From: Promethearchaeota archaeon
GTDB lineage: Archaea > Asgardarchaeota > Lokiarchaeia > Sigyniarchaeales > SOKP01
NCBI GenBank assembly: GCA_019057865.1
Contig: JAHLWP010000054.1
Location: 1 to 20,069 of the forward strand
Length of the DNA stretch: 20,069 nt
Direction of reading: 5' to 3'
This document shows, piece by piece, positions 5,448-18,099 of the stretch. Made by a program: the position numbers and the translations under genes. The notes below the pieces were generated by a model. It searched no databases and was not told the DNA's origin. It saw only the letters and a list, made by a program, of their open reading frames with translations. Within the stretch, counting starts at the first letter, position 1; the number at the start of each line of letters is the position of its first letter.

Positions 5448-5590
5448 AAAGATGCTTTACGTACGTAAAAAACTAATAAATTTTATAAAGTATGATGATT
5501 TCATGGTATATTAAGATTTTTTTACTAATATAGAAAGATCTTTACGTACGTAAAAAACTAATATTATTTTAATAAATAAATGAATATTTA
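5448..5590 (+). promoter_or_regulatory. Tandemly duplicated operator/promoter: two copies of palindrome TTTACGTACGTAAA, each followed by a TATA-like box
   Basis: Identical 24-mer CTTTACGTACGTAAAAAACTAATA at 5455-5478 and 5540-5563 (85 bp period). Perfect 14-bp palindromes at 5456-5469 and 5541-5554. TTTATAAA at 5482-5489 and TTTAATAA at 5568-5575. Lies directly upstream of the DUF2284 ATG at 5620. Confidence 0.7.
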
Positions 5591-5619: not shown

Positions 5620-6405
5620 ATGACGCAGAAACTGATACCTGAAGTTGAGAAAGAATGGTCTAAAATATCTTTCAAATGGCGGAGATTATTACCAAAAAAG
5701 AAAGATAGGCCACCATCTCCAATAAAAATTGAACCTGATGAAAAGATCTTTCTTGAGCTCCTTGAACGATCTAATAAAATCATAAATCAAATAATTATAA
5801 AATCAAAAATTAAAGCTACTGGTCATGCTAAATTAATACCAACAGATAAAATTGTAATAGATCCGCGCGTACGCTGGAAATGTAGAATTCCTGTGTGTTT
5901 TGGTTACGGAACTAGTATAAATTGTCCTCCACATTCTCCAACTACCGAAGAGATGAGAGAAATTGTTAGTAGTTATAATCATGCTATATTAATTACATTT
6001 TATCCACCGACAAAAAATCATATTTTTCCCGGAATTCTTCTCGGTGTCCAGGGAGATGTAAATCTATTAAATCAAATAGTCTCAATGATAGAAGCAGAAG
6101 CAACATACTTGGGATATTATCTTGCTATGGGGTTTAAAGGTGGACCTTGTGTTGGTTGCGGATTTTTTTCTCCAGAATATTTTAAAGACTTAATGCAACA
6201 AAAAAAAATTCCCCCTTGTCCTGTGCTCGATAATCAAATGTGCCGGCAGTATTTAAGAGCTAGACCTTCACTAGAGGCTTGTGGAGTGGATATATTTGCT
6301 ACAGCTGTCAAATGTGGAGAAAAACCACCATTTGTAATTAATCCCGAACATCCAAAGGAATCTGTTCCCTATGTTGGTTGGCATGGTATCGTTTTAATTA
6401 TTTGA
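5620..6405 (+). CDS. DUF2284 family Cys-rich predicted metal-binding protein
   Basis: RVRWKCRIPVCFGYGTSINCPPHSP, GGPCVGC, C-x7-C and ARPSLEACGVDIFAT match the pattern I recognise as DUF2284. Confidence 0.8.
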   Translation: MTQKLIPEVEKEWSKISFKWRRLLPKKKDRPPSPIKIEPDEKIFLELLERSNKIINQIIIKSKIKATGHAKLIPTDKIVIDPRVRWKCRIPVCFGYGTSINCPPHSPTTEEMREIVSSYNHAILITFYPPTKNHIFPGILLGVQGDVNLLNQIVSMIEAEATYLGYYLAMGFKGGPCVGCGFFSPEYFKDLMQQKKIPPCPVLDNQMCRQYLRARPSLEACGVDIFATAVKCGEKPPFVINPEHPKESVPYVGWHGIVLII

Positions 6406-6445
6406 TAATATCTATTATTAAGAGTTGAGAGAGGTAAATTTTATA

Positions 6446-7108
6446 ATGGAAAATACAAGTTTAGAAAATCAGACAAAAACTAAAAATCCTTTATATTATA
6501 TTAATAACGTCATTGAAGCGGTTAGTTCACTCGACTTTTATTCAATGAAAGACACCATAAAACAAGCAATAGATGCAAGAGTACCCATAATCGATATTAT
6601 AAATAAGGGTATTTTAAAAGGATTGGAAGAATCAGGAGAAATGGGGCTTATTTTAGCGGCAGAAGCTCTCCAAGGTGAAATTATATCTATAGATGAGGAA
6701 GATAGAAGAAGATTATACAAGGCTAGGAATTACTCGGGAAAGGTAGTTGTCGGAACAATTGAAGGGGATATTCATAATTTAGGTAAAAATATTCTAATCG
6801 CGTTAATGAAATCTTATGGTATGGATATTATCGACCTTGGAATAGATGTGAAACCTGAAAAATTTGAAGAAGCCGCTCGAATGCCAGATGTTAAAGTTAT
6901 TGGTATATCATATCTTCTTTCTTCAGCGGAACCCTTCATAAAAAGAGCAGTGTCCTTATTAAAAAAAGGAGATTTAGCAAATAAGGTAAAAGTTATTTTG
7001 GGAGGTGCTGCTGCGTCTTATGAATTCACAGAACAAATAAAAGCAGATGCTTACGCAAAGGACGCTTTAGAAGGTTTTAATCTAATTGATAAATGGTTAC
7101 GGAATTAA
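6446..7108 (+). CDS. Methyltransferase-cognate corrinoid (B12-binding) protein, MtaC/MtbC/MttC-like
   Basis: VVVGTIEGDIHNLGKN (DxHxxG base-off/His-on), IDLGIDV, SYL (SxL), ILGGAA, ADAYAKDA, plus an N-terminal helical cap domain. ATG 6446 follows GAGGT and is preferred to TTG 6425. Confidence 0.92.
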   Translation: MENTSLENQTKTKNPLYYINNVIEAVSSLDFYSMKDTIKQAIDARVPIIDIINKGILKGLEESGEMGLILAAEALQGEIISIDEEDRRRLYKARNYSGKVVVGTIEGDIHNLGKNILIALMKSYGMDIIDLGIDVKPEKFEEAARMPDVKVIGISYLLSSAEPFIKRAVSLLKKGDLANKVKVILGGAAASYEFTEQIKADAYAKDALEGFNLIDKWLRN

Positions 7109-7149
7109 GAATAATTAATCCCTTCCTTTTATCTATAAGGGGTACTCAT

Positions 7150-9156
7150 ATGGAGAATAAAAGAAATACCCTCATTTTGGAACCAATATCTAAACGAATC
7201 AATGTTGTTGAAGGTTCAACTGTTTATGAATCGCTTTTAGCGTTAAATTTACCTATAGGTGCCCTATGTGCAGGTAAGGGAACATGTGGAAAATGCGTAA
7301 TTAGTGTTTTAGATCCTAATCCAAAAATTTCAGAACCATCAGAACAAGAAAAAAAAATATTAAACAATCAAAAAATATTAGAAGGTTATAGGTTAGCATG
7401 TCAAACTAAAATTTTAGGAGATTTAAGAGTATTTTTAACTGACTCATTAATTTCGAGAGGAATTAGAATTTTAGTAGATGCTGATTTAGAATCTCTCGGA
7501 ATAAAAAATAATGATAAAACTAACCCCGGAATTACTTCACTGCTTTGTAAGATCACCTCTGCGGATTTAGGTAATCCAAAAAATGATTTATCTAGATTAT
7601 TTGAGGACGTAATAGAAAGAAATAGTAATTATAAGATAAATGAAAATCACACCTTATTTCATGTAAATGATATTCTATATAACACTATTAAAAAATTACC
7701 ACATATTATGAGAAAAGAAGATGGTCTTGTTACAGCTTTTTTTAGAAAGCTCTCATTGGAAGATCCATGGACTCTTCATGATATTGATGTCGGAGATAAA
7801 AATAATAATCTTTTTGGATTAGCTATTGATATTGGAACTACTACTCTTGTTGGATATTTAATTTGTTTAAAAACAGGCGAAATTGCAGCGGTTTCTGCTA
7901 TGTTAAATCCTCAAGTGGCTATCGGTGAAGATATTATTTCAAGAATTACCTATATCGTAAAAAATAATGCAATTCATAAAGCAAAAGAATTGGTGATTAA
8001 TGCTTTAAATCATATACTTGAGGATTGTTGTGATAAGGCTCACATTTCTATTTCGTGTGTTAAAGATATTTCTGTTGTAGGAAATACAGGAATGCATCAC
8101 ATATTTTTTGGAATAACCCCAGAATTTTTAGCTGTTTCACCTTACATTCCAGTATTTAAAGCCCCAATTAATGTAAGTGCGGGTATGCTTGGAATAAAAT
8201 GTAATCCCAATGTAAATGTATATTCTCCTCCTGTTATTGCTGGCTACGTAGGAACAGACACAATTGGATGTATAATCTCATCTAAAATCAATACATACGA
8301 TAAATATTCTCTTTTAATTGATATTGGTACTAATGGTGAACTTGTGTTGGGAAATAATGAAGGATTAGTTACATGTTCATGTGCTGCTGGTTCGGCTTTG
8401 GAGGGTGCTCATATTTTATATGGTATGCGAGCTTCTGAAGGAGCAATAGAATCAGTCAAAATTGATAGAAATACTTTGGAACCTTCAATAGACGTAATAG
8501 GAAACATAAAACCACTTGGATTGTGTGGTTCAGGGCTCATTGACATGATAGCAGAAATGCTGAAATCAAATATCATCACGCGTGCGGGAAAATTTAATAT
8601 CAAATCAGAAAAAGTAATGAAACATCGTCGTGTTGTAAAAAGGGAAGATAAATACCATTATATTATATATAAAGCTGAATGGGATAATGAACAATATCAA
8701 AAAAATATTAATGATAATAACATTGAGGAAATCACCATTTCTCAGAAAGATATTCATCAGCTTCAACTAGCGAAAAGTGCATTTTTATCTGCAGCGAATT
8801 TATTACTTAAAATGGAACATAAAAAAAAAGAATCTCTTGAACAAGTTCTTTTAGCAGGAGCCTTTGGAACTTATATCAATAAAAAAAATGCCGCTTTTAT
8901 TGGTTTATTCCCTGAGGTTGAACAAAACTCCATTTTCCAGATTGGAAATTCAGCAGGAATGGGAGCACAATTATTTATAAAAGATATTGAGCAAAGATAT
9001 CTAGCAAATAAGATTGCCTATGAGATTAAGTATAGAGAAATTGCATCATTACCATCATTTCAAAAGGAATTCACTTTTTCTCTTTATTTTCCTCATTATA
9101 ATCTTGACAGATTCCCTCTAATAAAACAAGAATATGATGAAATTCCTTTAAAGTAA
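7150..9156 (+). CDS. ATP-dependent reductive activator of corrinoid proteins (RACo/AcsV type, ASKHA ATPase with N-terminal [2Fe-2S] ferredoxin)
   Basis: CAGKGTCGKC...RLACQ [2Fe-2S] domain, plus AIDIGTTT, GEDIISRI, VVGNTGMHH, IDIGTNGE, CAAGSALEG, GLCGSG, LAGAFG and GNSAG. Start reassigned to ATG 7150. Confidence 0.92.
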   Translation: MENKRNTLILEPISKRINVVEGSTVYESLLALNLPIGALCAGKGTCGKCVISVLDPNPKISEPSEQEKKILNNQKILEGYRLACQTKILGDLRVFLTDSLISRGIRILVDADLESLGIKNNDKTNPGITSLLCKITSADLGNPKNDLSRLFEDVIERNSNYKINENHTLFHVNDILYNTIKKLPHIMRKEDGLVTAFFRKLSLEDPWTLHDIDVGDKNNNLFGLAIDIGTTTLVGYLICLKTGEIAAVSAMLNPQVAIGEDIISRITYIVKNNAIHKAKELVINALNHILEDCCDKAHISISCVKDISVVGNTGMHHIFFGITPEFLAVSPYIPVFKAPINVSAGMLGIKCNPNVNVYSPPVIAGYVGTDTIGCIISSKINTYDKYSLLIDIGTNGELVLGNNEGLVTCSCAAGSALEGAHILYGMRASEGAIESVKIDRNTLEPSIDVIGNIKPLGLCGSGLIDMIAEMLKSNIITRAGKFNIKSEKVMKHRRVVKREDKYHYIIYKAEWDNEQYQKNINDNNIEEITISQKDIHQLQLAKSAFLSAANLLLKMEHKKKESLEQVLLAGAFGTYINKKNAAFIGLFPEVEQNSIFQIGNSAGMGAQLFIKDIEQRYLANKIAYEIKYREIASLPSFQKEFTFSLYFPHYNLDRFPLIKQEYDEIPLK

Positions 9157-9219
9157 GAATGCGAGAAAAAATTAATAAGATTATTTTTACGTTAGGAATT
9201 ATTTATTTACAATAGTAAA

Positions 9220-9238: not shown

Positions 9239-11062
9239 ATGATAAAAACTGGAAAAGGTAAAATTTCGAAGAAAAAATCGGGTAACCGTGCATATGATAG
9301 TTATTGGGTTTATATCCCCAGTAAGATTGCTAAAGATAGCGCTTTTCCATTTAGAGATAAAGAAGAAGTCGTGATAGAATTAAAGGGTGAACACTTGGAA
9401 ATTCGAAAAATATATAACCTAAGTGACCTAACAAAAGTCTATGATATTGAGGATGCTACACTGCCAAAAATAATTGAAAGTAAAGCACTGATTAATAAAG
9501 ACAAACCATTTATTTATTATCGTGATGAGGTTTATACTTATGAAGAGGCAAATATAATTTCAAATCAGATAGCTAATGGACTTATAAAACAAATTAAAAA
9601 ATTAAAATTGAAAAATCCTCATATATCCTTGATATTTCCAAATAATCCAGAGGCTCTTTTTTGTTGGTTCGGCATTGTAAAAACTGGTAGCGTATTTGTA
9701 CCAATAAGTTACTTATTAAAAAAGAATTTACTGGAATATGTATTGAAAAATAGCGATTCAGAAATTTTAATTATCGATTATATATATCTTGCGAATGTTG
9801 AGGAGATTTACGAAAATTTACCCAAAATTAAGAAAATTTTTATCCAAAACGCACCAAATGATTATAAATACGAGGATAAATATGCTAGTTTTTCAGAAAT
9901 CTTTTCTGAAAATTTAGAGAAACCAAATATTCAAATGAACAGTTTCCATCCTCTCGAAATATCATATACATCAGGGACTACAGGAATACCAAAAGGAGTG
10001 TTGTATAGAAATTATTACACCTTGTCAGGAATTAGTGTAGGAAGACAGTTGGAAGATTTAGGATTTGGCAGTAATATTAATAAATTTTATTGTCCCTTGC
10101 CATTATTTCAAGGATTAGAACGATATTTCTTGATAATTCCAATAATGTATCATAATGGATCAATAATAATCGTAGAAAAATTTGATGTTTCAACTTTTTG
10201 GAGTGATATTGGAAAATATAAACCTGATGGATTTTGCTATTATGGAGCACACTTGGCAATGTTGGTAAATCAAACACCGTCAAAAATTGATAGAAACCAT
10301 TCGATTAAATATGCATTTGGAGCTGGAGCCTTAAAAAAGATATGGGAAACCTTCGAAAGAAGGTTTGGGATTCAAATAATTGAAATGTGGTCTCTTGTTG
10401 AGGGAATTGGTTTTACTATAAATAACGTAGGTTCCAAAGGAGGAAAACTAGGTTCTATCGGAAAGGCAGCACGGGGCGTTGAAATTAAAATTGTTGATTC
10501 AGAAGGAAAAGAACTTCCTCCTGGACGAGATCATATCGGTGAAATCTGTGCAAGAACAAGACTCCCCTTTGAACTTGAATACTATAACTTACAAGAAGAG
10601 ACAATAACAAGAAAAGGAGAAGATCGATGGGTTTACACGGGCGATTTTGGATATGCCGATCATGAAGGGTTCATATATTACTTAGGAAGGAAATCAGACA
10701 TGATTCATAGAGAAAAGGAGATATTTTTTTCGGGGGATATCGAAATAGTCGCAAATTCACATCCACTTATAGTCGAAAGCGCTGTTTTTGACGTTTTTGA
10801 TAGCAAATCCTCGGAAAAATATTTAAAAATTTGTGCTGTAATTCAAAAAGGAGCTTCGATTACCCATAAAGAATTTCACAATTTTCTAAAACAAAACCTG
10901 GCCTATTTTATGGTTCCAAGATATATAGAATTTAAAAAAGAATTACCAAAAAATGCAAACGAATTAATTCAGAAATTTATACTTAGAAAAGAATGGGAAT
11001 CAGGAAAATCATTAAAAAATAGCTACGATACGAGGAGTACTCTTGAAGAGAAGAAGAAGTAG
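9239..11062 (+). CDS. AbrB/MazE-like N-terminal domain fused to AMP-binding acyl-CoA ligase domain (CaiC-like, degenerate catalytic motifs)
   Basis: aa 1-57 SYWVYIPSKIAKDSAFPFRDKEEVVIELKGEHLEIRK fits a swapped-hairpin pattern. Ligase motifs YTSGTTGIPKG, WVYTGD, YLGRKSD and YFMVPRYIEF are present. The A10 motif reads PKNANEL. Confidence 0.85.
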   Translation: MIKTGKGKISKKKSGNRAYDSYWVYIPSKIAKDSAFPFRDKEEVVIELKGEHLEIRKIYNLSDLTKVYDIEDATLPKIIESKALINKDKPFIYYRDEVYTYEEANIISNQIANGLIKQIKKLKLKNPHISLIFPNNPEALFCWFGIVKTGSVFVPISYLLKKNLLEYVLKNSDSEILIIDYIYLANVEEIYENLPKIKKIFIQNAPNDYKYEDKYASFSEIFSENLEKPNIQMNSFHPLEISYTSGTTGIPKGVLYRNYYTLSGISVGRQLEDLGFGSNINKFYCPLPLFQGLERYFLIIPIMYHNGSIIIVEKFDVSTFWSDIGKYKPDGFCYYGAHLAMLVNQTPSKIDRNHSIKYAFGAGALKKIWETFERRFGIQIIEMWSLVEGIGFTINNVGSKGGKLGSIGKAARGVEIKIVDSEGKELPPGRDHIGEICARTRLPFELEYYNLQEETITRKGEDRWVYTGDFGYADHEGFIYYLGRKSDMIHREKEIFFSGDIEIVANSHPLIVESAVFDVFDSKSSEKYLKICAVIQKGASITHKEFHNFLKQNLAYFMVPRYIEFKKELPKNANELIQKFILRKEWESGKSLKNSYDTRSTLEEKKK

Positions 11063-11178
11063 AAGAAGGAGATTATAGATTATAATCTTTGTTTTTTGTT
11101 TCCCACTTATCCATGAAGAATTTTAACAAGGTTCTGTTTCAATGAGACTTTTTAAACATTATCAACTTGATATTTATT

Positions 11179-11724
11179 ATGGTAATTACGTTATTTGATC
11201 AACTTGATAAAAATCAATTAAAAGAACTACTAGTTAAATGTTGGATGACTCATGATGGCTCCTGGTTTTATAATTGCGCCCGTGAATTAGGTATTGATAC
11301 TGCTAACAAACTAAATAAAGCAGCTATTAAAACTCTTTCAGTAATTGAAATGCAGCGAGTAAAAAAGGCGATAGGAATGGAGAACATAAAAATCAAAACA
11401 TTTGAGCAGTTAAAAGATTTTATTACTAATGCTTTTAGCGTATTAAAAGCGGATTTTATGGACTTTGAATATACATTCCCTGAAAATAATCGGATACATT
11501 GGGAAATGAACCGATGTTTCGCCTACAAAGGAATGGAAATGATTGGACTCAACAAACAATATGAATGTGGCGTAATATACCGTGTTAGTTGCTGGTTGGA
11601 TGCTCTCGGTATAAACCATACAATTGAGCCTGAAATCGATAAATGCTTATTAAATTCTCATAAAAAATGTTATGGGGATATTATTCTGGATAACTTCCCT
11701 TCTAACATTTCGGTCAAATATTGA
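11179..11724 (+). CDS. DUF6125-like protein (V4R/ATC-hydrolase-like Cys-containing ligand-binding fold)
   Basis: KCWMTHDGSWF...GIDTANKLN N-terminal motif, followed by spaced Cys residues (RCF, YEC, KCL, KCY). ATG 11179 is preferred to TTG 11167. Confidence 0.65.
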   Translation: MVITLFDQLDKNQLKELLVKCWMTHDGSWFYNCARELGIDTANKLNKAAIKTLSVIEMQRVKKAIGMENIKIKTFEQLKDFITNAFSVLKADFMDFEYTFPENNRIHWEMNRCFAYKGMEMIGLNKQYECGVIYRVSCWLDALGINHTIEPEIDKCLLNSHKKCYGDIILDNFPSNISVKY

Positions 11725-11840: not shown

Positions 11841-13784
11841 TTAAGACTTAATTTTGATGGAAACAGCTATGACTCCTTTCATTGAGCCCCCTCCCCCTCC
11901 AGGTGGTTTGAAGATAAAAGGATATGGAAAAAATCCCCCTTCATCATCATCTTTTTTATGTCCACACCAATCACAGATGTCTTGACCATTCGGAATTATT
12001 TTTCCACAGTAAGAGCATCTCGAATGACTCCTCTGAATTTGTTTCATAATCTTTTCTTTAATAAGTAATTTCTGTTCCTCATTTAATTCATTTAAAGGTA
12101 TATTCTTCATAGCTTCTAAACCTCTCCATCTTGATATATTAGGTATATAAACGTCTTTTCCTTCAAGTTTGTTTTTAATTACATGAATACAATCTAAAAT
12201 ATCTTTACCTATTTTTTCATCAACTTGGTTTAAGAGATTTTCTAATGTGGATTTCAAAGTATATAAAAATTGGGGGTTGTTGTATCTTGAATAAGGTCTA
12301 AAAGTGGGTATTTTTGGGTCTATTTGAATACTCGAAAATAAGATATTTTTACCCTCAGGAAGCTTTAGAATTTGTAATAAAATGTCTTCAAGCACTGTTG
12401 GAAACTTCGAAACGCAAGATCTTAAAAATTGAGACAATATTTTAAGTTCAGAGGAGATATTCTTAATTAGGTCAGGCGATTCCAAAATAGTTTTGAATTC
12501 TGAGGGACTAAAGACTTGTATATATCCTTGATTAAGAAGATACTGAACTACAGAAGGGTATCCGCTTTCGAGTCTTAAAGCAATTTCTTCTTTATATACT
12601 CTCCTTGCCTTGGGATCTCCTGCCTTTGTCAATTCTCTTAACAATGGAAATGAAATATTGCTCATTAGAATCCTTGTGTCGTAGTCATGCTCAACCCATG
12701 CTTGAATGTTTGAACAATGTCCCCAAAATTCCTGCTCTGGGGTAATATCATGTCTCTGATTTGGTACAGGTGCTGCCATGGGACCCCTTACGATTCTATT
12801 TTGGAATACATGTTTATTATACAATTTAGCTGCTTCATCTATAGAATCAACCTCATCGTATAAGGGTACATCCTCTCTTGGTATGTTTAAGATTAAACGG
12901 ATACACTGAATAAACCTCTTTCCGTTTACAAAAATAAAAGTTTTTCCATTCACCAATTTAAGAGTTATATATTGATTAATTTCTTTTTCAATTGTTGGAG
13001 TTGCTTTACCTATATTATATTGATTTATATTAACATTTAACCAATCAACACCAAAAGCATTCTTTTTAATAGGTTTTTTAGGTTTTTTTGAAATTTTATC
13101 TGGTTTTAATTTAATGAAAACAATTAATAAGATCAAACCGATTGTCCCTAAAATGATACAAATTATAATGCCAGCTATGCTTAGACTTTTCAAGATTGTT
13201 GGGTCTATCCCCTTATAACTTAATTCTATCCATGCTATATCGTTGTTACTTGAAGCACCTTCTTTTGAGTATCCTTGTATATATCCATCTCCCTCTCCCC
13301 CTCTTCCATATAAACAAACACTTACTCCATCGTTGATAATTTGGTCTGATCTTAAAGGAATTCTAAAATCAAAACCGTCACATAAAATATGACCTCTATA
13401 AACACTCTTATTCGGTTTATTGTTCCAGGTTATAGTCATTTCATCCCAACTCTCATAGGTAAGATTCGCTCCTACGTCTACAACACTTGAACCATAATCG
13501 AAATTTACTATAATATTTGCCTCTATCCACCTATTGGGAAGAGAAGAAATATTAAAGTAATAGAAAGCTTGCACCTTCCTGGCATAAAAATTCCCTACGC
13601 GGAGATAATTATCATTGCCATAATTATTATTTGGATCATTTTCATATACACTTGCATCTTTATTAATATTAATCGTTAATTCATATCCCCGAAAGTGAGC
13701 CGCTATTAAAAAAAGAGTAAACATGAAAATTATTAACAGAATTAATAATATGAATCCAATCCGTCTTTTAAGTTGATGATTCAT
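11841..13784 (-). CDS. Membrane protein: signal anchor, DNRLRE (CBM96-like) ectodomain, TM helix, Lokiarchaeal EFWGHCSN domain, Zn ribbon
   Basis: Hydrophobic aa 9-29; DASVYENDPNNNYG and WDEMTITWNNKP (DNRLRE hallmarks); second TM LSIAGIIICIILGTIGLILLIVFI followed by a Lys-rich stretch; INQYITLKL...SIDEAA...PEQEFWGHCSNIQAW...FPLLRELTKAGD; CSYC-x10-CDWC. Confidence 0.8.
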   Translation of the reverse strand: MNHQLKRRIGFILLILLIIFMFTLFLIAAHFRGYELTININKDASVYENDPNNNYGNDNYLRVGNFYARKVQAFYYFNISSLPNRWIEANIIVNFDYGSSVVDVGANLTYESWDEMTITWNNKPNKSVYRGHILCDGFDFRIPLRSDQIINDGVSVCLYGRGGEGDGYIQGYSKEGASSNNDIAWIELSYKGIDPTILKSLSIAGIIICIILGTIGLILLIVFIKLKPDKISKKPKKPIKKNAFGVDWLNVNINQYNIGKATPTIEKEINQYITLKLVNGKTFIFVNGKRFIQCIRLILNIPREDVPLYDEVDSIDEAAKLYNKHVFQNRIVRGPMAAPVPNQRHDITPEQEFWGHCSNIQAWVEHDYDTRILMSNISFPLLRELTKAGDPKARRVYKEEIALRLESGYPSVVQYLLNQGYIQVFSPSEFKTILESPDLIKNISSELKILSQFLRSCVSKFPTVLEDILLQILKLPEGKNILFSSIQIDPKIPTFRPYSRYNNPQFLYTLKSTLENLLNQVDEKIGKDILDCIHVIKNKLEGKDVYIPNISRWRGLEAMKNIPLNELNEEQKLLIKEKIMKQIQRSHSRCSYCGKIIPNGQDICDWCGHKKDDDEGGFFPYPFIFKPPGGGGGSMKGVIAVSIKIKS

Positions 13785-15400: not shown

Positions 15401-15934
15401 ATGATATGGGTAACTAGAGATTATGTACATATAGATAGAGTAGCCAGCCCGTGGTTAATTAAAAGATTTGTTGATAAGCGTGCCCAATTTATTTTTCTCC
15501 CTCGCGATGAAATATCTGATTTTGTGGCGAAAACTGGGGCAATTCCATTTGATACTGCTGGTTTAGGGGTAGAACTTGATCATCATGTTTGCAATGATGA
15601 AAAGCACTGTACATTCGATGCCATCGTAGAAAAATTTAAGTTAGAAACCGATGAAGCTTTACAAAGAGTTAGGAAAATTGTAAGAGCAGCAGATACTGGA
15701 GGTATAAAAGAAGAACCCCTCGCATGGGCTTTAGAAGTTATAGCAGTTGGAACACCAATTTTAGTGGATTCAGATCAGGAAGCATTGGAAAAGGAATTTC
15801 CAGTTTATGACGCAGTATACGCATATTTCCAACAACAAATAATTCGTGAAAAATATAAAGATGAATTAGAGAAATTCAAAACTCGAGGAGAAAAACTGGC
15901 ATTCATTAAACAAAAATTAAACAAATTACAATGA
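15401..15934 (+). CDS. Chromate resistance ChrB C-terminal domain protein (ChrF-like stand-alone)
   Basis: WVTR...IDRVASPWLIKRFVD..AQF.F, GAIPFD, H...CTFD and DEAL..VR.IV..AD match the ChrB_C pattern. Confidence 0.8.
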   Translation: MIWVTRDYVHIDRVASPWLIKRFVDKRAQFIFLPRDEISDFVAKTGAIPFDTAGLGVELDHHVCNDEKHCTFDAIVEKFKLETDEALQRVRKIVRAADTGGIKEEPLAWALEVIAVGTPILVDSDQEALEKEFPVYDAVYAYFQQQIIREKYKDELEKFKTRGEKLAFIKQKLNKLQ

Positions 15935-17148
15935 CTAGAACAATAGCAGATAAAAAAGAATACAACAACCTAAAATTTGGCTATTTTTTTATTATAAGTT
16001 TTATTGGATTTTTTGCGATTTTTAGTTCCACCATGTCCAAGAGTCCAATTCTGCCCCTCTTTGCGGAATCTTTAATGGCATCTGAATTTGAGATGCAATT
16101 TATTGGTTATGTTATTGCGGCTTCTACCATACCAGGAATTTTAGTTAGTGTGATCGCCGGTCGATTATCAGATGTGTATGGACGAAAAAAACTTATTCTA
16201 ATTTCAACAGCTATATTTGCTAGTGCTCCCTTTTTTTATCTTTTTGCGACTAACATTTGGATATTGATGGTTATTCGATTCTATCATGGTTTTTCAACAG
16301 CAATTTTCGTTCCCGTTGCGATTGCAGCTATTGCAGAATCGTATCCAGAAAAAAAAGGAAAATACATTTCCTCCTTTTCTTCAATAACGCTTGTGGGACG
16401 TTTTCTAGCACCTATAACTGGTGGAGTAATACTTTACATCACAAGCTATTATTATTATGGTGTTTATCTTGGATGCGCGTGTTCAGGAATTATGGCTTTT
16501 ATACTTACATTGTTTCTTTATCGAACACGACGCCATCATACTGAACACGTACAAGTAGCTGGCAAGAGTTCACTCACAATAAAAGAATTTTTAAAAGGGA
16601 TTAAAGAAGTGGTGAAGCATAAAGTCATCTTAACAACCAGCATCGTTCAAGCTAGCCAATATTTTGCATATGGGATCATAGAAGCCTATGTGATCCTATA
16701 CGCTGATTCTCTTCACTTTGATGCCTGGATAATTGGATTACTTCCAGCAATCTTAATCTTGATGTTAGGTGTATTTAATCCTCTCATGGGATCCTTTTCG
16801 GACAAGGTGGGACGCCGTTCAATTATTATCACTGGCCTTCTCCTAGGAGGAGGAGTATCATTATTGATACCATTTATTACCAATTATTTATGGTTTATCT
16901 TGATACTCTGCGGTTTTGGAATCGGTATGGCCATGGTTATATCCTCTACAGCCGCTCACGTATCAGACTATTCTAAAAAAAAAGATTATGGAACAGCAAT
17001 CGGAGTTCTAAGCACAATTATGGATATAGGACAGACTATTGGTCCTATTCTAAGTGGATATGTCTTAATTGTTCTTTCCTTTGGAGGCGTTTTTTCGATG
17101 GTTGGCGTTGTACTACTAGCATCAGCTCTCATCTTTTCTTTTTCTTGA
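15931..17148 (+). CDS. MFS transporter (DHA1-like)
   Basis: About 12 hydrophobic segments, motif A twice (GRLSDVYGRK, GSFSDKVGRR), RFYHG motif B. ATGA overlap with the ChrB-domain gene. Confidence 0.92.
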   Translation: MTRTIADKKEYNNLKFGYFFIISFIGFFAIFSSTMSKSPILPLFAESLMASEFEMQFIGYVIAASTIPGILVSVIAGRLSDVYGRKKLILISTAIFASAPFFYLFATNIWILMVIRFYHGFSTAIFVPVAIAAIAESYPEKKGKYISSFSSITLVGRFLAPITGGVILYITSYYYYGVYLGCACSGIMAFILTLFLYRTRRHHTEHVQVAGKSSLTIKEFLKGIKEVVKHKVILTTSIVQASQYFAYGIIEAYVILYADSLHFDAWIIGLLPAILILMLGVFNPLMGSFSDKVGRRSIIITGLLLGGGVSLLIPFITNYLWFILILCGFGIGMAMVISSTAAHVSDYSKKKDYGTAIGVLSTIMDIGQTIGPILSGYVLIVLSFGGVFSMVGVVLLASALIFSFS

Positions 17149-17273: not shown

Positions 17274-17693
17274 ATGAATCTTGGAAAAATTAAAAAAGCT
17301 ATAAGGAAAACATTATCGGAAAAAGAAGAGATAATTGCCTCTTATTTATATGGCTCGTTTATAAATCGTAAATATTTTAGAGATCTTGATGTTGGATTAT
17401 TAATTAATGATACATATAAACCCAATGTTTTATATGAAGCTAGAATATCGGGAGAATTAGAAATTGCTCTAAAACCTATATTCGATAATTTTAAAACCAT
17501 CGATGTCAGAATATTGAATGACAAACCTTTAAGCTTTTTGTTTTCGGTTCTAAAAAATTCAGAATTGATTTTTTCTAAGAATGAGTCAAAAAGAGTTAAA
17601 TTTGAAGCTGATATCATTAAAAAATATCTTGATATTAAACCCCATTATGAATTATATAATAAGATGCGGAGGTTAAGGTATGCAAATAGATAA
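17274..17693 (+). CDS. mntA: Minimal nucleotidyltransferase (MNT) antitoxin, type VII TA
   Basis: YLYGSF-x7-DLDVG and IDVRILND Pol-beta-type motifs; overlaps the downstream HEPN gene by 14 bp. Confidence 0.88.
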   Translation: MNLGKIKKAIRKTLSEKEEIIASYLYGSFINRKYFRDLDVGLLINDTYKPNVLYEARISGELEIALKPIFDNFKTIDVRILNDKPLSFLFSVLKNSELIFSKNESKRVKFEADIIKKYLDIKPHYELYNKMRRLRYANR

Positions 17694-18099
17694 GAATATA
17701 ATTCAAGGGAAAATTGATATAATTGAGAAAGATCTTAACTTCCTAAATGAATATAAGGATAAAGAGGTAGAAGATCTTTTAACAAGTTATAAAGATATCC
17801 AAGCTGTAAAATATTCTCTTTTTGAAATTATTGAAGCTTCAATTGATATGGCGTCTCATATTATATCAGCAAAAGGACTTAAAAGACCTGAAAGTTATGC
17901 TGAAATGTTTGAAATCCTTGGTAAACAAAATTTAATTAATATGAATTTAAGTAGAAAGTTATCCGAAATGGCTAGATTTAGAAATATTTTGGTTCATAGT
18001 TATGCTGAAGTAGATAATTCCAAAATTTTAAACTATGTTAAGGAAGAATTAAAAGATGTTGAGGATTATATTATAAATCTATTAGAATTAATTAAATGA
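17680..18099 (+). CDS. hepT: HEPN (DUF86) ribonuclease toxin, type VII TA
   Basis: IEASIDMASH and FRNILVHSY (R-x4-H-x-Y, including the Tyr adenylylated by MntA in characterised systems). Confidence 0.9.
   Translation: MQIDKNIIQGKIDIIEKDLNFLNEYKDKEVEDLLTSYKDIQAVKYSLFEIIEASIDMASHIISAKGLKRPESYAEMFEILGKQNLINMNLSRKLSEMARFRNILVHSYAEVDNSKILNYVKEELKDVEDYIINLLELIK

What the first reader, a model, noticed from the sequence alone, without database searches (positions are those of the whole stretch)
5620..9156. Corrinoid methyl-transfer operon in which DUF2284 occupies the slot of the missing methyltransferase
Seen: tightly spaced, co-directional DUF2284, corrinoid protein and RACo genes (gaps about 40 bp), with no MtaA/UroD-, MttB-, MtaB- or pterin-binding methyltransferase recognisable anywhere in the 20 kb. 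Known: corrinoid protein plus activator modules normally travel with a substrate-specific MT1 and/or a Zn-thiol or folate MT2. Inference: the Cys-rich DUF2284 protein (C-x4-C-x8-CPP, CxxC, C-x7-C, EAC) may be an undescribed metal-dependent methyltransferase, methyl acceptor or redox partner of the corrinoid protein. That would give a function to a DUF and indicate a new methyl-transfer system in Asgard archaea.
Basis: partly seen in the sequence, partly recalled or inferred. Interest (0 to 1): 0.8.

Follow-up and report, generated by a model that had tools for sequence, protein, structure and literature searches.

The report
Methyltransferase-less B12 cassette in Asgard archaea
Many Lokiarchaeia carry a self-regulated gene set in which a vitamin-B12 carrier protein that has lost its methyl-shielding lid always follows an uncharacterised cysteine-rich protein; that protein looks more like a B12-processing or electron-relay helper than the missing methyl-transfer enzyme, but neither role is proven.

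Summary
DUF2284, a corrinoid protein and RACo are co-directional, no methyltransferase (MT) was recognised in the window, and the pairing is strict: all 33 Lokiarchaeia genomes with this corrinoid ortholog carry it directly behind the DUF2284 ortholog. 'DUF2284 is the missing MT' is only partly supported. Its predicted fold is nitroreductase-like (as in QueG, RdhA, CblC), not a TIM barrel. Its seven cysteines are family-wide. In Bacillota DUF2284 sits in operons that already have MT1 and MT2, and is fused to a BzaC-type protein. Yet no MT in this genome shares the operator, two tested UroD genes do not co-occur, and the RACo is a dedicated paralog. Best reading (0.40): a cobamide-processing or redox module, often beside BtuR and a CoA-transferase. 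A new B12 enzyme remains possible (about 0.35). The scan noted this cassette before on other DNA.

The parts
5456..5469 (.). Operator I, perfect 14-bp palindrome with core TTAC-N4-GTAA
   Evidence: (2 matches, 0.11 expected); function inferred
5481..5489 (+). TATA-like box between the two operators (inferred archaeal promoter)
   Evidence: sequence; similar box in ortholog promoters; not tested functionally
5541..5554 (.). Operator II; core conserved 72-101 bp upstream of the start in 30/30 ortholog promoters
   Evidence: background 11 of 2972 genes
5620..6405 (+). DUF2284 protein, 261 aa, extended subfamily; seven family-wide Cys (88, 93, 102, 177, 180, 200, 208); predicted nitroreductase-like fold
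6446..7108 (+). Corrinoid protein, 220 aa (alternative TTG start 6425); His-on motif intact, 9-residue deletion in the cap
7150..9156 (+). RACo/AcsV-type ATP-dependent corrinoid reductive activator with N-terminal [2Fe-2S] domain; operon-specific paralog (longest ORF starts 7093)
9185..9219 (.). Two operator-like sites before gene 4 (9185-9200 imperfect, 9206-9219), suggesting autoregulation
9239..11062 (+). Gene 4, 607 aa: about 70-aa basic N-terminal domain fused to an acyl-CoA-ligase fold lacking the A10 lysine; probable one-component regulator
   Evidence: DNA binding inferred, AbrB fold not detected by profile searches

Best explanation
A regulated cobamide-processing or redox module, not a methyl-transfer relay. 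Shown: gene content, strict pairing, cap deletion, operator, dedicated RACo. Predicted: nitroreductase-like fold of DUF2284. Inferred: (1) the corrinoid protein binds a cobamide His-on with its upper face left open; (2) its own RACo uses ATP to drive Co(II) to Co(I); (3) DUF2284 binds Fe-S clusters or Zn through 3+4 Cys and works at the cobalt's upper face as a helper, relaying electrons and/or stripping or handing over the cofactor, as CblC/CblD-type proteins of this fold do; (4) the reduced or cleaned cobamide goes to B12 enzymes elsewhere, most plausibly through the BtuR adenosyltransferase that often lies next to the cassette, for acyl-CoA mutases; (5) gene 4 senses an organic acid or acyl-CoA and controls the cassette through TTAC-N4-GTAA.
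For: Fold: the top 50 VIA rows are almost all nitroreductase-like, Z 5.5-8.1, including QueG and PceA; QueG B12 domain and NpRdhA at Z 7.1; NpRdhA is the top Foldseek row (E 0.07). This fold binds or traffics B12 in QueG, RdhA, CblC and CblD (PMC5175355, PMC4705923). DUF2284 recurs beside corrinoid genes in at least 5 separate places on the tree, in operons that already have MTs, e.g. AcsE-type MT2 + corrinoid + UroD + DUF2284 (L183) and UroD + RACo + DUF2284 + corrinoid (L188), and is fused to a class I MT between cobT and bzaD (L196). The cap deletion removes the stretch that in MetH carries Phe708 and Leu715 over the methyl group (PMC3760249; the MetH register is from my own knowledge). BtuR lies in 5 and CoA-transferase genes in 9 of 16 Lokiarchaeia loci, in three genera; one deep locus sits near MeaB and methylmalonyl-CoA mutase.
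Against: Fold scores are middling (Z 8 or less is common), and sequence-profile links to RdhA/QueG were not significant. B12 or Fe-S binding by DUF2284 is not shown. An inducible operon with a metabolite sensor suggests a specific substrate, which fits a catalytic role better. In this genome the BtuR/CoA-transferase cluster is on another contig without the operator, and its synteny may be inherited. Most DUF2284s have no corrinoid neighbour (none of 62 generic loci).
Confidence: 0.4

Rival explanations
1. One reading: the extended DUF2284 subfamily is a non-canonical metal-dependent methyl or alkyl transferase that docks on the uncapped cobalt, perhaps acting on a CoA ester made by the neighbouring CoA-transferase.
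For: 33/33 pairing with a corrinoid protein whose cap is deleted in every ortholog seen. Dedicated RACo paralog only in cassette genomes, on top of a housekeeping RACo. No MT gene has the operator. Two orphan UroD genes occur in only 13 of 34 cassette genomes each. In Dehalococcoidia a 51% ortholog sits with a corrinoid protein and one His-Cys-Cys UroD, leaving an MT1 slot open.
Against: Not a TIM barrel. Same Cys set as non-corrinoid DUF2284s. Close subfamily members occur without any corrinoid gene nearby (L006, L007, L238-L242). Loss of the methyl cap is odd for a methyl carrier. One protein cannot easily supply both half-reactions.
Confidence: 0.22
2. A split QueG/RdhA-like reductase: RACo makes Co(I) on the open corrinoid protein and DUF2284 supplies the substrate pocket and Fe-S relay for reductive cleavage (C-halogen, epoxide or C-S).
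For: RdhA and QueG are among the fold neighbours; seven Cys could hold two clusters; the upper face is open.
Against: QueG and RdhA hold B12 base-off without His in their own domain and use a ferredoxin domain (PMC5175355); DUF2284 has no ferredoxin motif. The genome has separate RdhA-like and QueG-like genes (assigned by my reading).
Confidence: 0.14
3. An ordinary corrinoid methyl carrier served in trans by MTs encoded elsewhere, with DUF2284 as a generic accessory.
For: This genome has 7 UroD-family genes, one MttB and a homocysteine S-methyltransferase. All 18 cassette genomes tested have UroD-family genes and 14 have MttB.
Against: The MttB and the best MtaA-like gene have their own capped corrinoid partners. 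None shares the operator. Two tested UroDs do not co-occur; five were not profiled.
Confidence: 0.16
4. A B12 store or sensor with no turnover.
For: The cap is remodelled and deep-branching pairs lack an adjacent RACo.
Against: The main clade keeps a dedicated RACo with intact motifs.
Confidence: 0.08

Closest known systems
Four-component corrinoid methyltransferase systems (O-demethylases of Acetobacterium dehalogenans; MtaABC, MttBC with RamA/RACo)
   Same: Corrinoid protein of the MttC/MtaC fold (Z 21) plus ATP-dependent activator in one operon.
   Different: No MT1 or MT2 in the cassette or its operator-defined regulon; methyl cap deleted; DUF2284 in first position.
Type 1 mlp gene clusters (Kountz and Balskus preprint, PMC10418091)
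   Same: Corrinoid protein plus Ram/RACE activator without a folate methyltransferase.
   Different: mlp clusters are defined by two or three UroD-family MTs; none here. The preprint does not mention DUF2284.
QueG, RdhA/PceA, CblC (MMACHC) and CblD (MMADHC)
   Same: Nitroreductase-like fold reused for B12 binding, processing or trafficking.
   Different: No significant sequence similarity, no ferredoxin domain, and B12 binding by DUF2284 is untested.
BzaC-type and ArsM/MbdU DUF2284 fusions (NF041536, NF045648; PMC13188914)
   Same: Same DUF2284 domain with the same seven Cys, attached to methyl or cobamide chemistry.
   Different: There it is an appendage to a SAM methyltransferase; here it stands alone with a subfamily-specific N-terminal arm. 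I recall that Mathur et al. 2020 (JBC) noted DUF2284 in BzaC, but the paper was not held.

Membership tests
Corrinoid MT1/MT2 system | His-on corrinoid protein with D-x-H-x-x-G | tested here: met
Corrinoid MT1/MT2 system | ATP-dependent reductive activator (RACo/RamA) | tested here: met
Corrinoid MT1/MT2 system | Substrate MT1 and acceptor MT2 in the cluster or regulon | tested here: not met
   None in the window or in any Lokiarchaeia locus; none with the operator. Supply in trans not excluded.
Corrinoid MT1/MT2 system | Intact four-helix cap with the Phe/Leu methyl-shielding segment | tested here: not met
   9-residue deletion in all Lokiarchaeia orthologs; helices 3 and 4 fuse in the model
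Known corrinoid methyltransferases (UroD/MtaA, MttB, MtaB, pterin-binding), for DUF2284 | Family profile match and TIM-barrel architecture | tested here: not met
   Only PF10050 matches; the model has four strands and is not a barrel
Known corrinoid methyltransferases, for DUF2284 | Methyl transfer to or from cobalt | not testable with these tools
   needs an assay
QueG/RdhA/CblC B12-binding nitroreductase-fold proteins | Nitroreductase-like fold | tested here: inconclusive
   Consistent but middling: Z 6.5-8.2, rmsd 3.6-6.5, 124-169 aligned; Foldseek E 0.07
QueG/RdhA | Ferredoxin domain with two [4Fe-4S] motifs | tested here: not met
   No Fer4 family hit; different Cys spacing
QueG/RdhA/CblC | Base-off cobalamin binding in the domain | not testable with these tools
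   no cobalamin ligand or coordinates available
Type 1 mlp clusters | At least Mlp2 and Mlp3 UroD-family genes in the cluster | tested here: not met
Active acyl-CoA ligase (gene 4) | A10 catalytic lysine and A5 Y-G-x-T-E motif | tested here: not met
   Replaced in all aligned orthologs that reach the motif; role of the Lys from PMC8388817
AbrB/SpoVT regulators (gene 4 N-terminus) | Swapped-hairpin DNA-binding domain | tested here: inconclusive
   Pattern resemblance only; no Pfam, PDB or hhalign support. Operator before 17/17 paralogs supports DNA binding.

The most novel reading that the evidence does not exclude
The extended DUF2284 and the cap-deleted corrinoid protein form a two-subunit B12 enzyme of an undescribed class, in which a nitroreductase-fold metal-thiolate or Fe-S protein replaces both the cap and the TIM-barrel methyltransferase and performs alkyl transfer or reductive cleavage on an organic acid or its CoA ester, under a regulator derived from a dead acyl-CoA ligase.
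Probability: 0.35. Interest if true: 0.85.

Novelty: new variant of a known kind. Interest (0 to 1): 0.62.

Why it matters
DUF2284 (PF10050) is widespread in anaerobes (102 of 301 sampled genomes of one bacterial phylum) and appears in only two papers of the library, as table entries. This cassette gives it a small, testable context: one partner, one activator, one operator. Either outcome is useful: a general cobamide-handling or electron-relay factor for corrinoid enzymes, or a new class of B12 enzyme in Asgard archaea. A corrinoid protein naturally lacking its methyl cap and a ligase-derived regulator with a known site are each unusual.

Tried and rejected
Complex prediction of DUF2284 with the corrinoid protein (two 4Fe-4S riding along) gave no verdict, score 0.00; it is not used either way. 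No solved-structure relative by sequence. hhalign to the genome's RdhA-like and QueG-like proteins not significant. ESM Atlas gave only DUF2284 itself or nothing. CblC/CblD were not among the listed fold hits, which shows nothing. AbrB assignment of gene 4 not confirmed by profiles. Two orphan UroD genes rejected as obligate partners. The 'EAC' Cys rejected as a conserved ligand. DUF6125 (11167-11724) and the upstream hydrolase rejected as members: seen in only one other locus and in none, respectively. The RACo list for Bacillota was truncated, so no unbiased linkage rate was obtained; my first 20 Bacillota loci were chosen from multi-copy genomes (10/20 corrinoid-linked) against 2/20 and 0/20 in the other sets. 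The tree is the quick version. The sigma-70 scan is not suited to archaea. BzaC papers were not held. Expression data were not examined.

Full report
Observation. The three genes are present and co-directional: DUF2284 5620-6405, corrinoid protein 6446-7108, RACo 7150-9156, with 40- and 41-bp gaps. No methyltransferase family matched any window ORF scanned. Homologs are labelled Promethearchaeota or Lokiarchaeia, so the Asgard origin is supported.

Conservation. Among 161 genomes of the class, the DUF2284 ortholog is in 34 and the corrinoid ortholog in 33, always as the next gene; the exception is cut by a contig end. These genomes are kin from four genera, so this is not 33 independent events. 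The main clade continues with RACo and a fourth gene. This RACo is a separate paralog (62-100% identity) found in 31 cassette genomes only, in addition to a housekeeping RACo of about 43% identity in most of the family. Deeper-branching archaeal loci have only the DUF2284-corrinoid pair (L215, L023, L228-L232, L234-L237, L244), so the pair is the core. No archaeal locus has an intact MT beside it; L023 has a 133-aa UroD fragment two genes upstream.

The corrinoid protein is atypical. It keeps the cobalt-ligating His motif but has a 9-residue deletion in the cap in every Lokiarchaeia ortholog, including the deep pairs. The missing stretch corresponds, by my knowledge of the MetH sequence, to the segment holding Phe708 and Leu715, which cover the methyl group (PMC3760249). 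In the model, cap helices 3 and 4 fuse (pLDDT about 70 there). The upper face of the cobalt is therefore probably more open (inference).

DUF2284. The model is confident (pLDDT 86.6) and is not a TIM barrel. Fold neighbours are almost all nitroreductase-like at Z 5.5-8.2, including the B12 domain of QueG and reductive dehalogenases. The scores are middling but consistent. This fold binds or traffics B12 in QueG, RdhA, CblC and CblD. Six Cys are invariant and a seventh is 118/119 across diverse family members; C221 is not conserved. So the Cys cluster is a family trait, not a feature of the corrinoid-linked form. What is specific to this subfamily is an N-terminal arm and an insertion between the CxxC and the last Cys pair.

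Context outside Asgard archaea. A 51% ortholog in Dehalococcoidia sits with a corrinoid protein and a His-Cys-Cys UroD-family MT; another Dehalococcoidia DUF2284 lies between MtrH and RACo. Several close bacterial orthologs have no corrinoid neighbour. In Bacillota, generic DUF2284s lie in operons that already hold UroD, MttB, MtbB or AcsE-type MTs, along with CobW and DUF1638, and are fused to a class I MT between cobT and bzaD, the BzaC position. Corrinoid-linked copies fall in at least five places on a quick tree. Most copies have no such neighbour. The family behaves as a recurring helper of cobamide and methyl chemistry rather than as a substitute MT.

Regulation. Two perfect palindromes precede DUF2284 (0.11 expected by chance). 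The core is kept in 30/30 ortholog promoters against 0.4% of genes. In this genome they are the only strong sites (score 21.3, next 12.7), and none precedes an MT, another corrinoid gene or the second RACo. Gene 4 is an acyl-CoA-ligase fold without the A10 lysine and with an altered A5 motif, fused to a basic 70-residue domain. The same site lies 30-61 bp before gene 4 and before 17/17 paralogs in other neighbourhoods (background 0.17%). That indicates an autoregulated transcription factor; the AbrB fold itself was not confirmed. Deep pairs lacking gene 4 mostly lack the site.

Is the MT supplied in trans? The genome has a corrinoid-homocysteine MT-MttB cluster, a UroD-corrinoid pair, a lone corrinoid gene and six more UroD-family genes. 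Two orphan UroDs occur in 13 of 34 cassette genomes and in about half of the others, so they do not track the cassette. All tested cassette genomes have some UroD-family gene, so trans supply is not excluded. What does recur next to the cassette is a BtuR adenosyltransferase, DUF169, CoA-transferase and nitroreductase cluster; here it is on contig C68 without the operator.

Mechanism. I favour a cobamide-processing or redox module (0.40): RACo reduces the open corrinoid to Co(I), which needs an electron donor (PMC6739815); DUF2284 relays electrons or handles the cofactor; BtuR and acyl-CoA mutases are the likely clients; gene 4 senses an acid or acyl-CoA. All of these steps are inferred. A catalytic role for DUF2284, as a transferase (0.22) or a split reductase (0.14), stays open because the pair is exclusive, inducible and has its own activator. 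An ordinary carrier served in trans gets 0.16 and a store 0.08.

Verdict. Real, conserved and undescribed in the papers searched; a new variant of the corrinoid-activator cassette. The scan noted the same cassette, cap deletion and regulator on other DNA; those notes were used as leads only. Interest 0.62.

Noticed in passing
window 9239-11062; L308-L325: Gene 4 belongs to a Lokiarchaeia family (53 of 135 genomes) of ligase-like proteins lacking the A10 lysine, each with TTAC-N4-GTAA before its own start and lying beside catabolic genes: a candidate new one-component regulator family.
   Followed up: yes
L003:1237-1860: The Dehalococcoidia corrinoid protein beside the DUF2284 ortholog has an intact cap but lacks the Asp of D-x-H-x-x-G; the operon continues with an MGH1-like glycoside hydrolase and an MFS transporter.
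   Followed up: partly
L195-L200; L054, L076: DUF2284 fused to a BzaC-type methyltransferase in benzimidazole (bza) operons; similar 540-aa fusions in Deltaproteobacteria form the sister branch.
   Followed up: partly
L157, L159, L162, L166, L173: In Bacillota methylamine MT operons DUF2284 is often flanked by a MoxR-type AAA+ ATPase and a vWA protein, a possible metal-insertion or chaperone set.
   Followed up: no
G000 contig C68 41699-45750: BtuR, DUF169, CoA-transferase alpha, nitroreductase, CoA-transferase beta cluster; adjacent to the cassette in other genomes.
   Followed up: partly
G000 C9 51781-52896 (L122) and C37 34686-35621 (L119): RdhA-like and QueG-like Fe-S proteins, assigned by my reading of the sequence.
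   Followed up: partly
G000 C87 63142-63702 (L002): Second, short, divergent DUF2284 without corrinoid neighbours.
   Followed up: partly
window 17274-18099: MntA/HepT type VII toxin-antitoxin pair.
   Followed up: no
window 15401-17148: ChrB-like gene overlapping an MFS transporter gene.
   Followed up: no
window 11841-13784: 647-aa protein on the minus strand with a CBM96 carbohydrate-binding module, a predicted membrane helix and a C-terminal zinc ribbon.
   Followed up: no
L215; L013, L018, L023: Some loci lie near homoserine, threonine or methionine pathway genes (assigned by eye); possibly inherited synteny.
   Followed up: no
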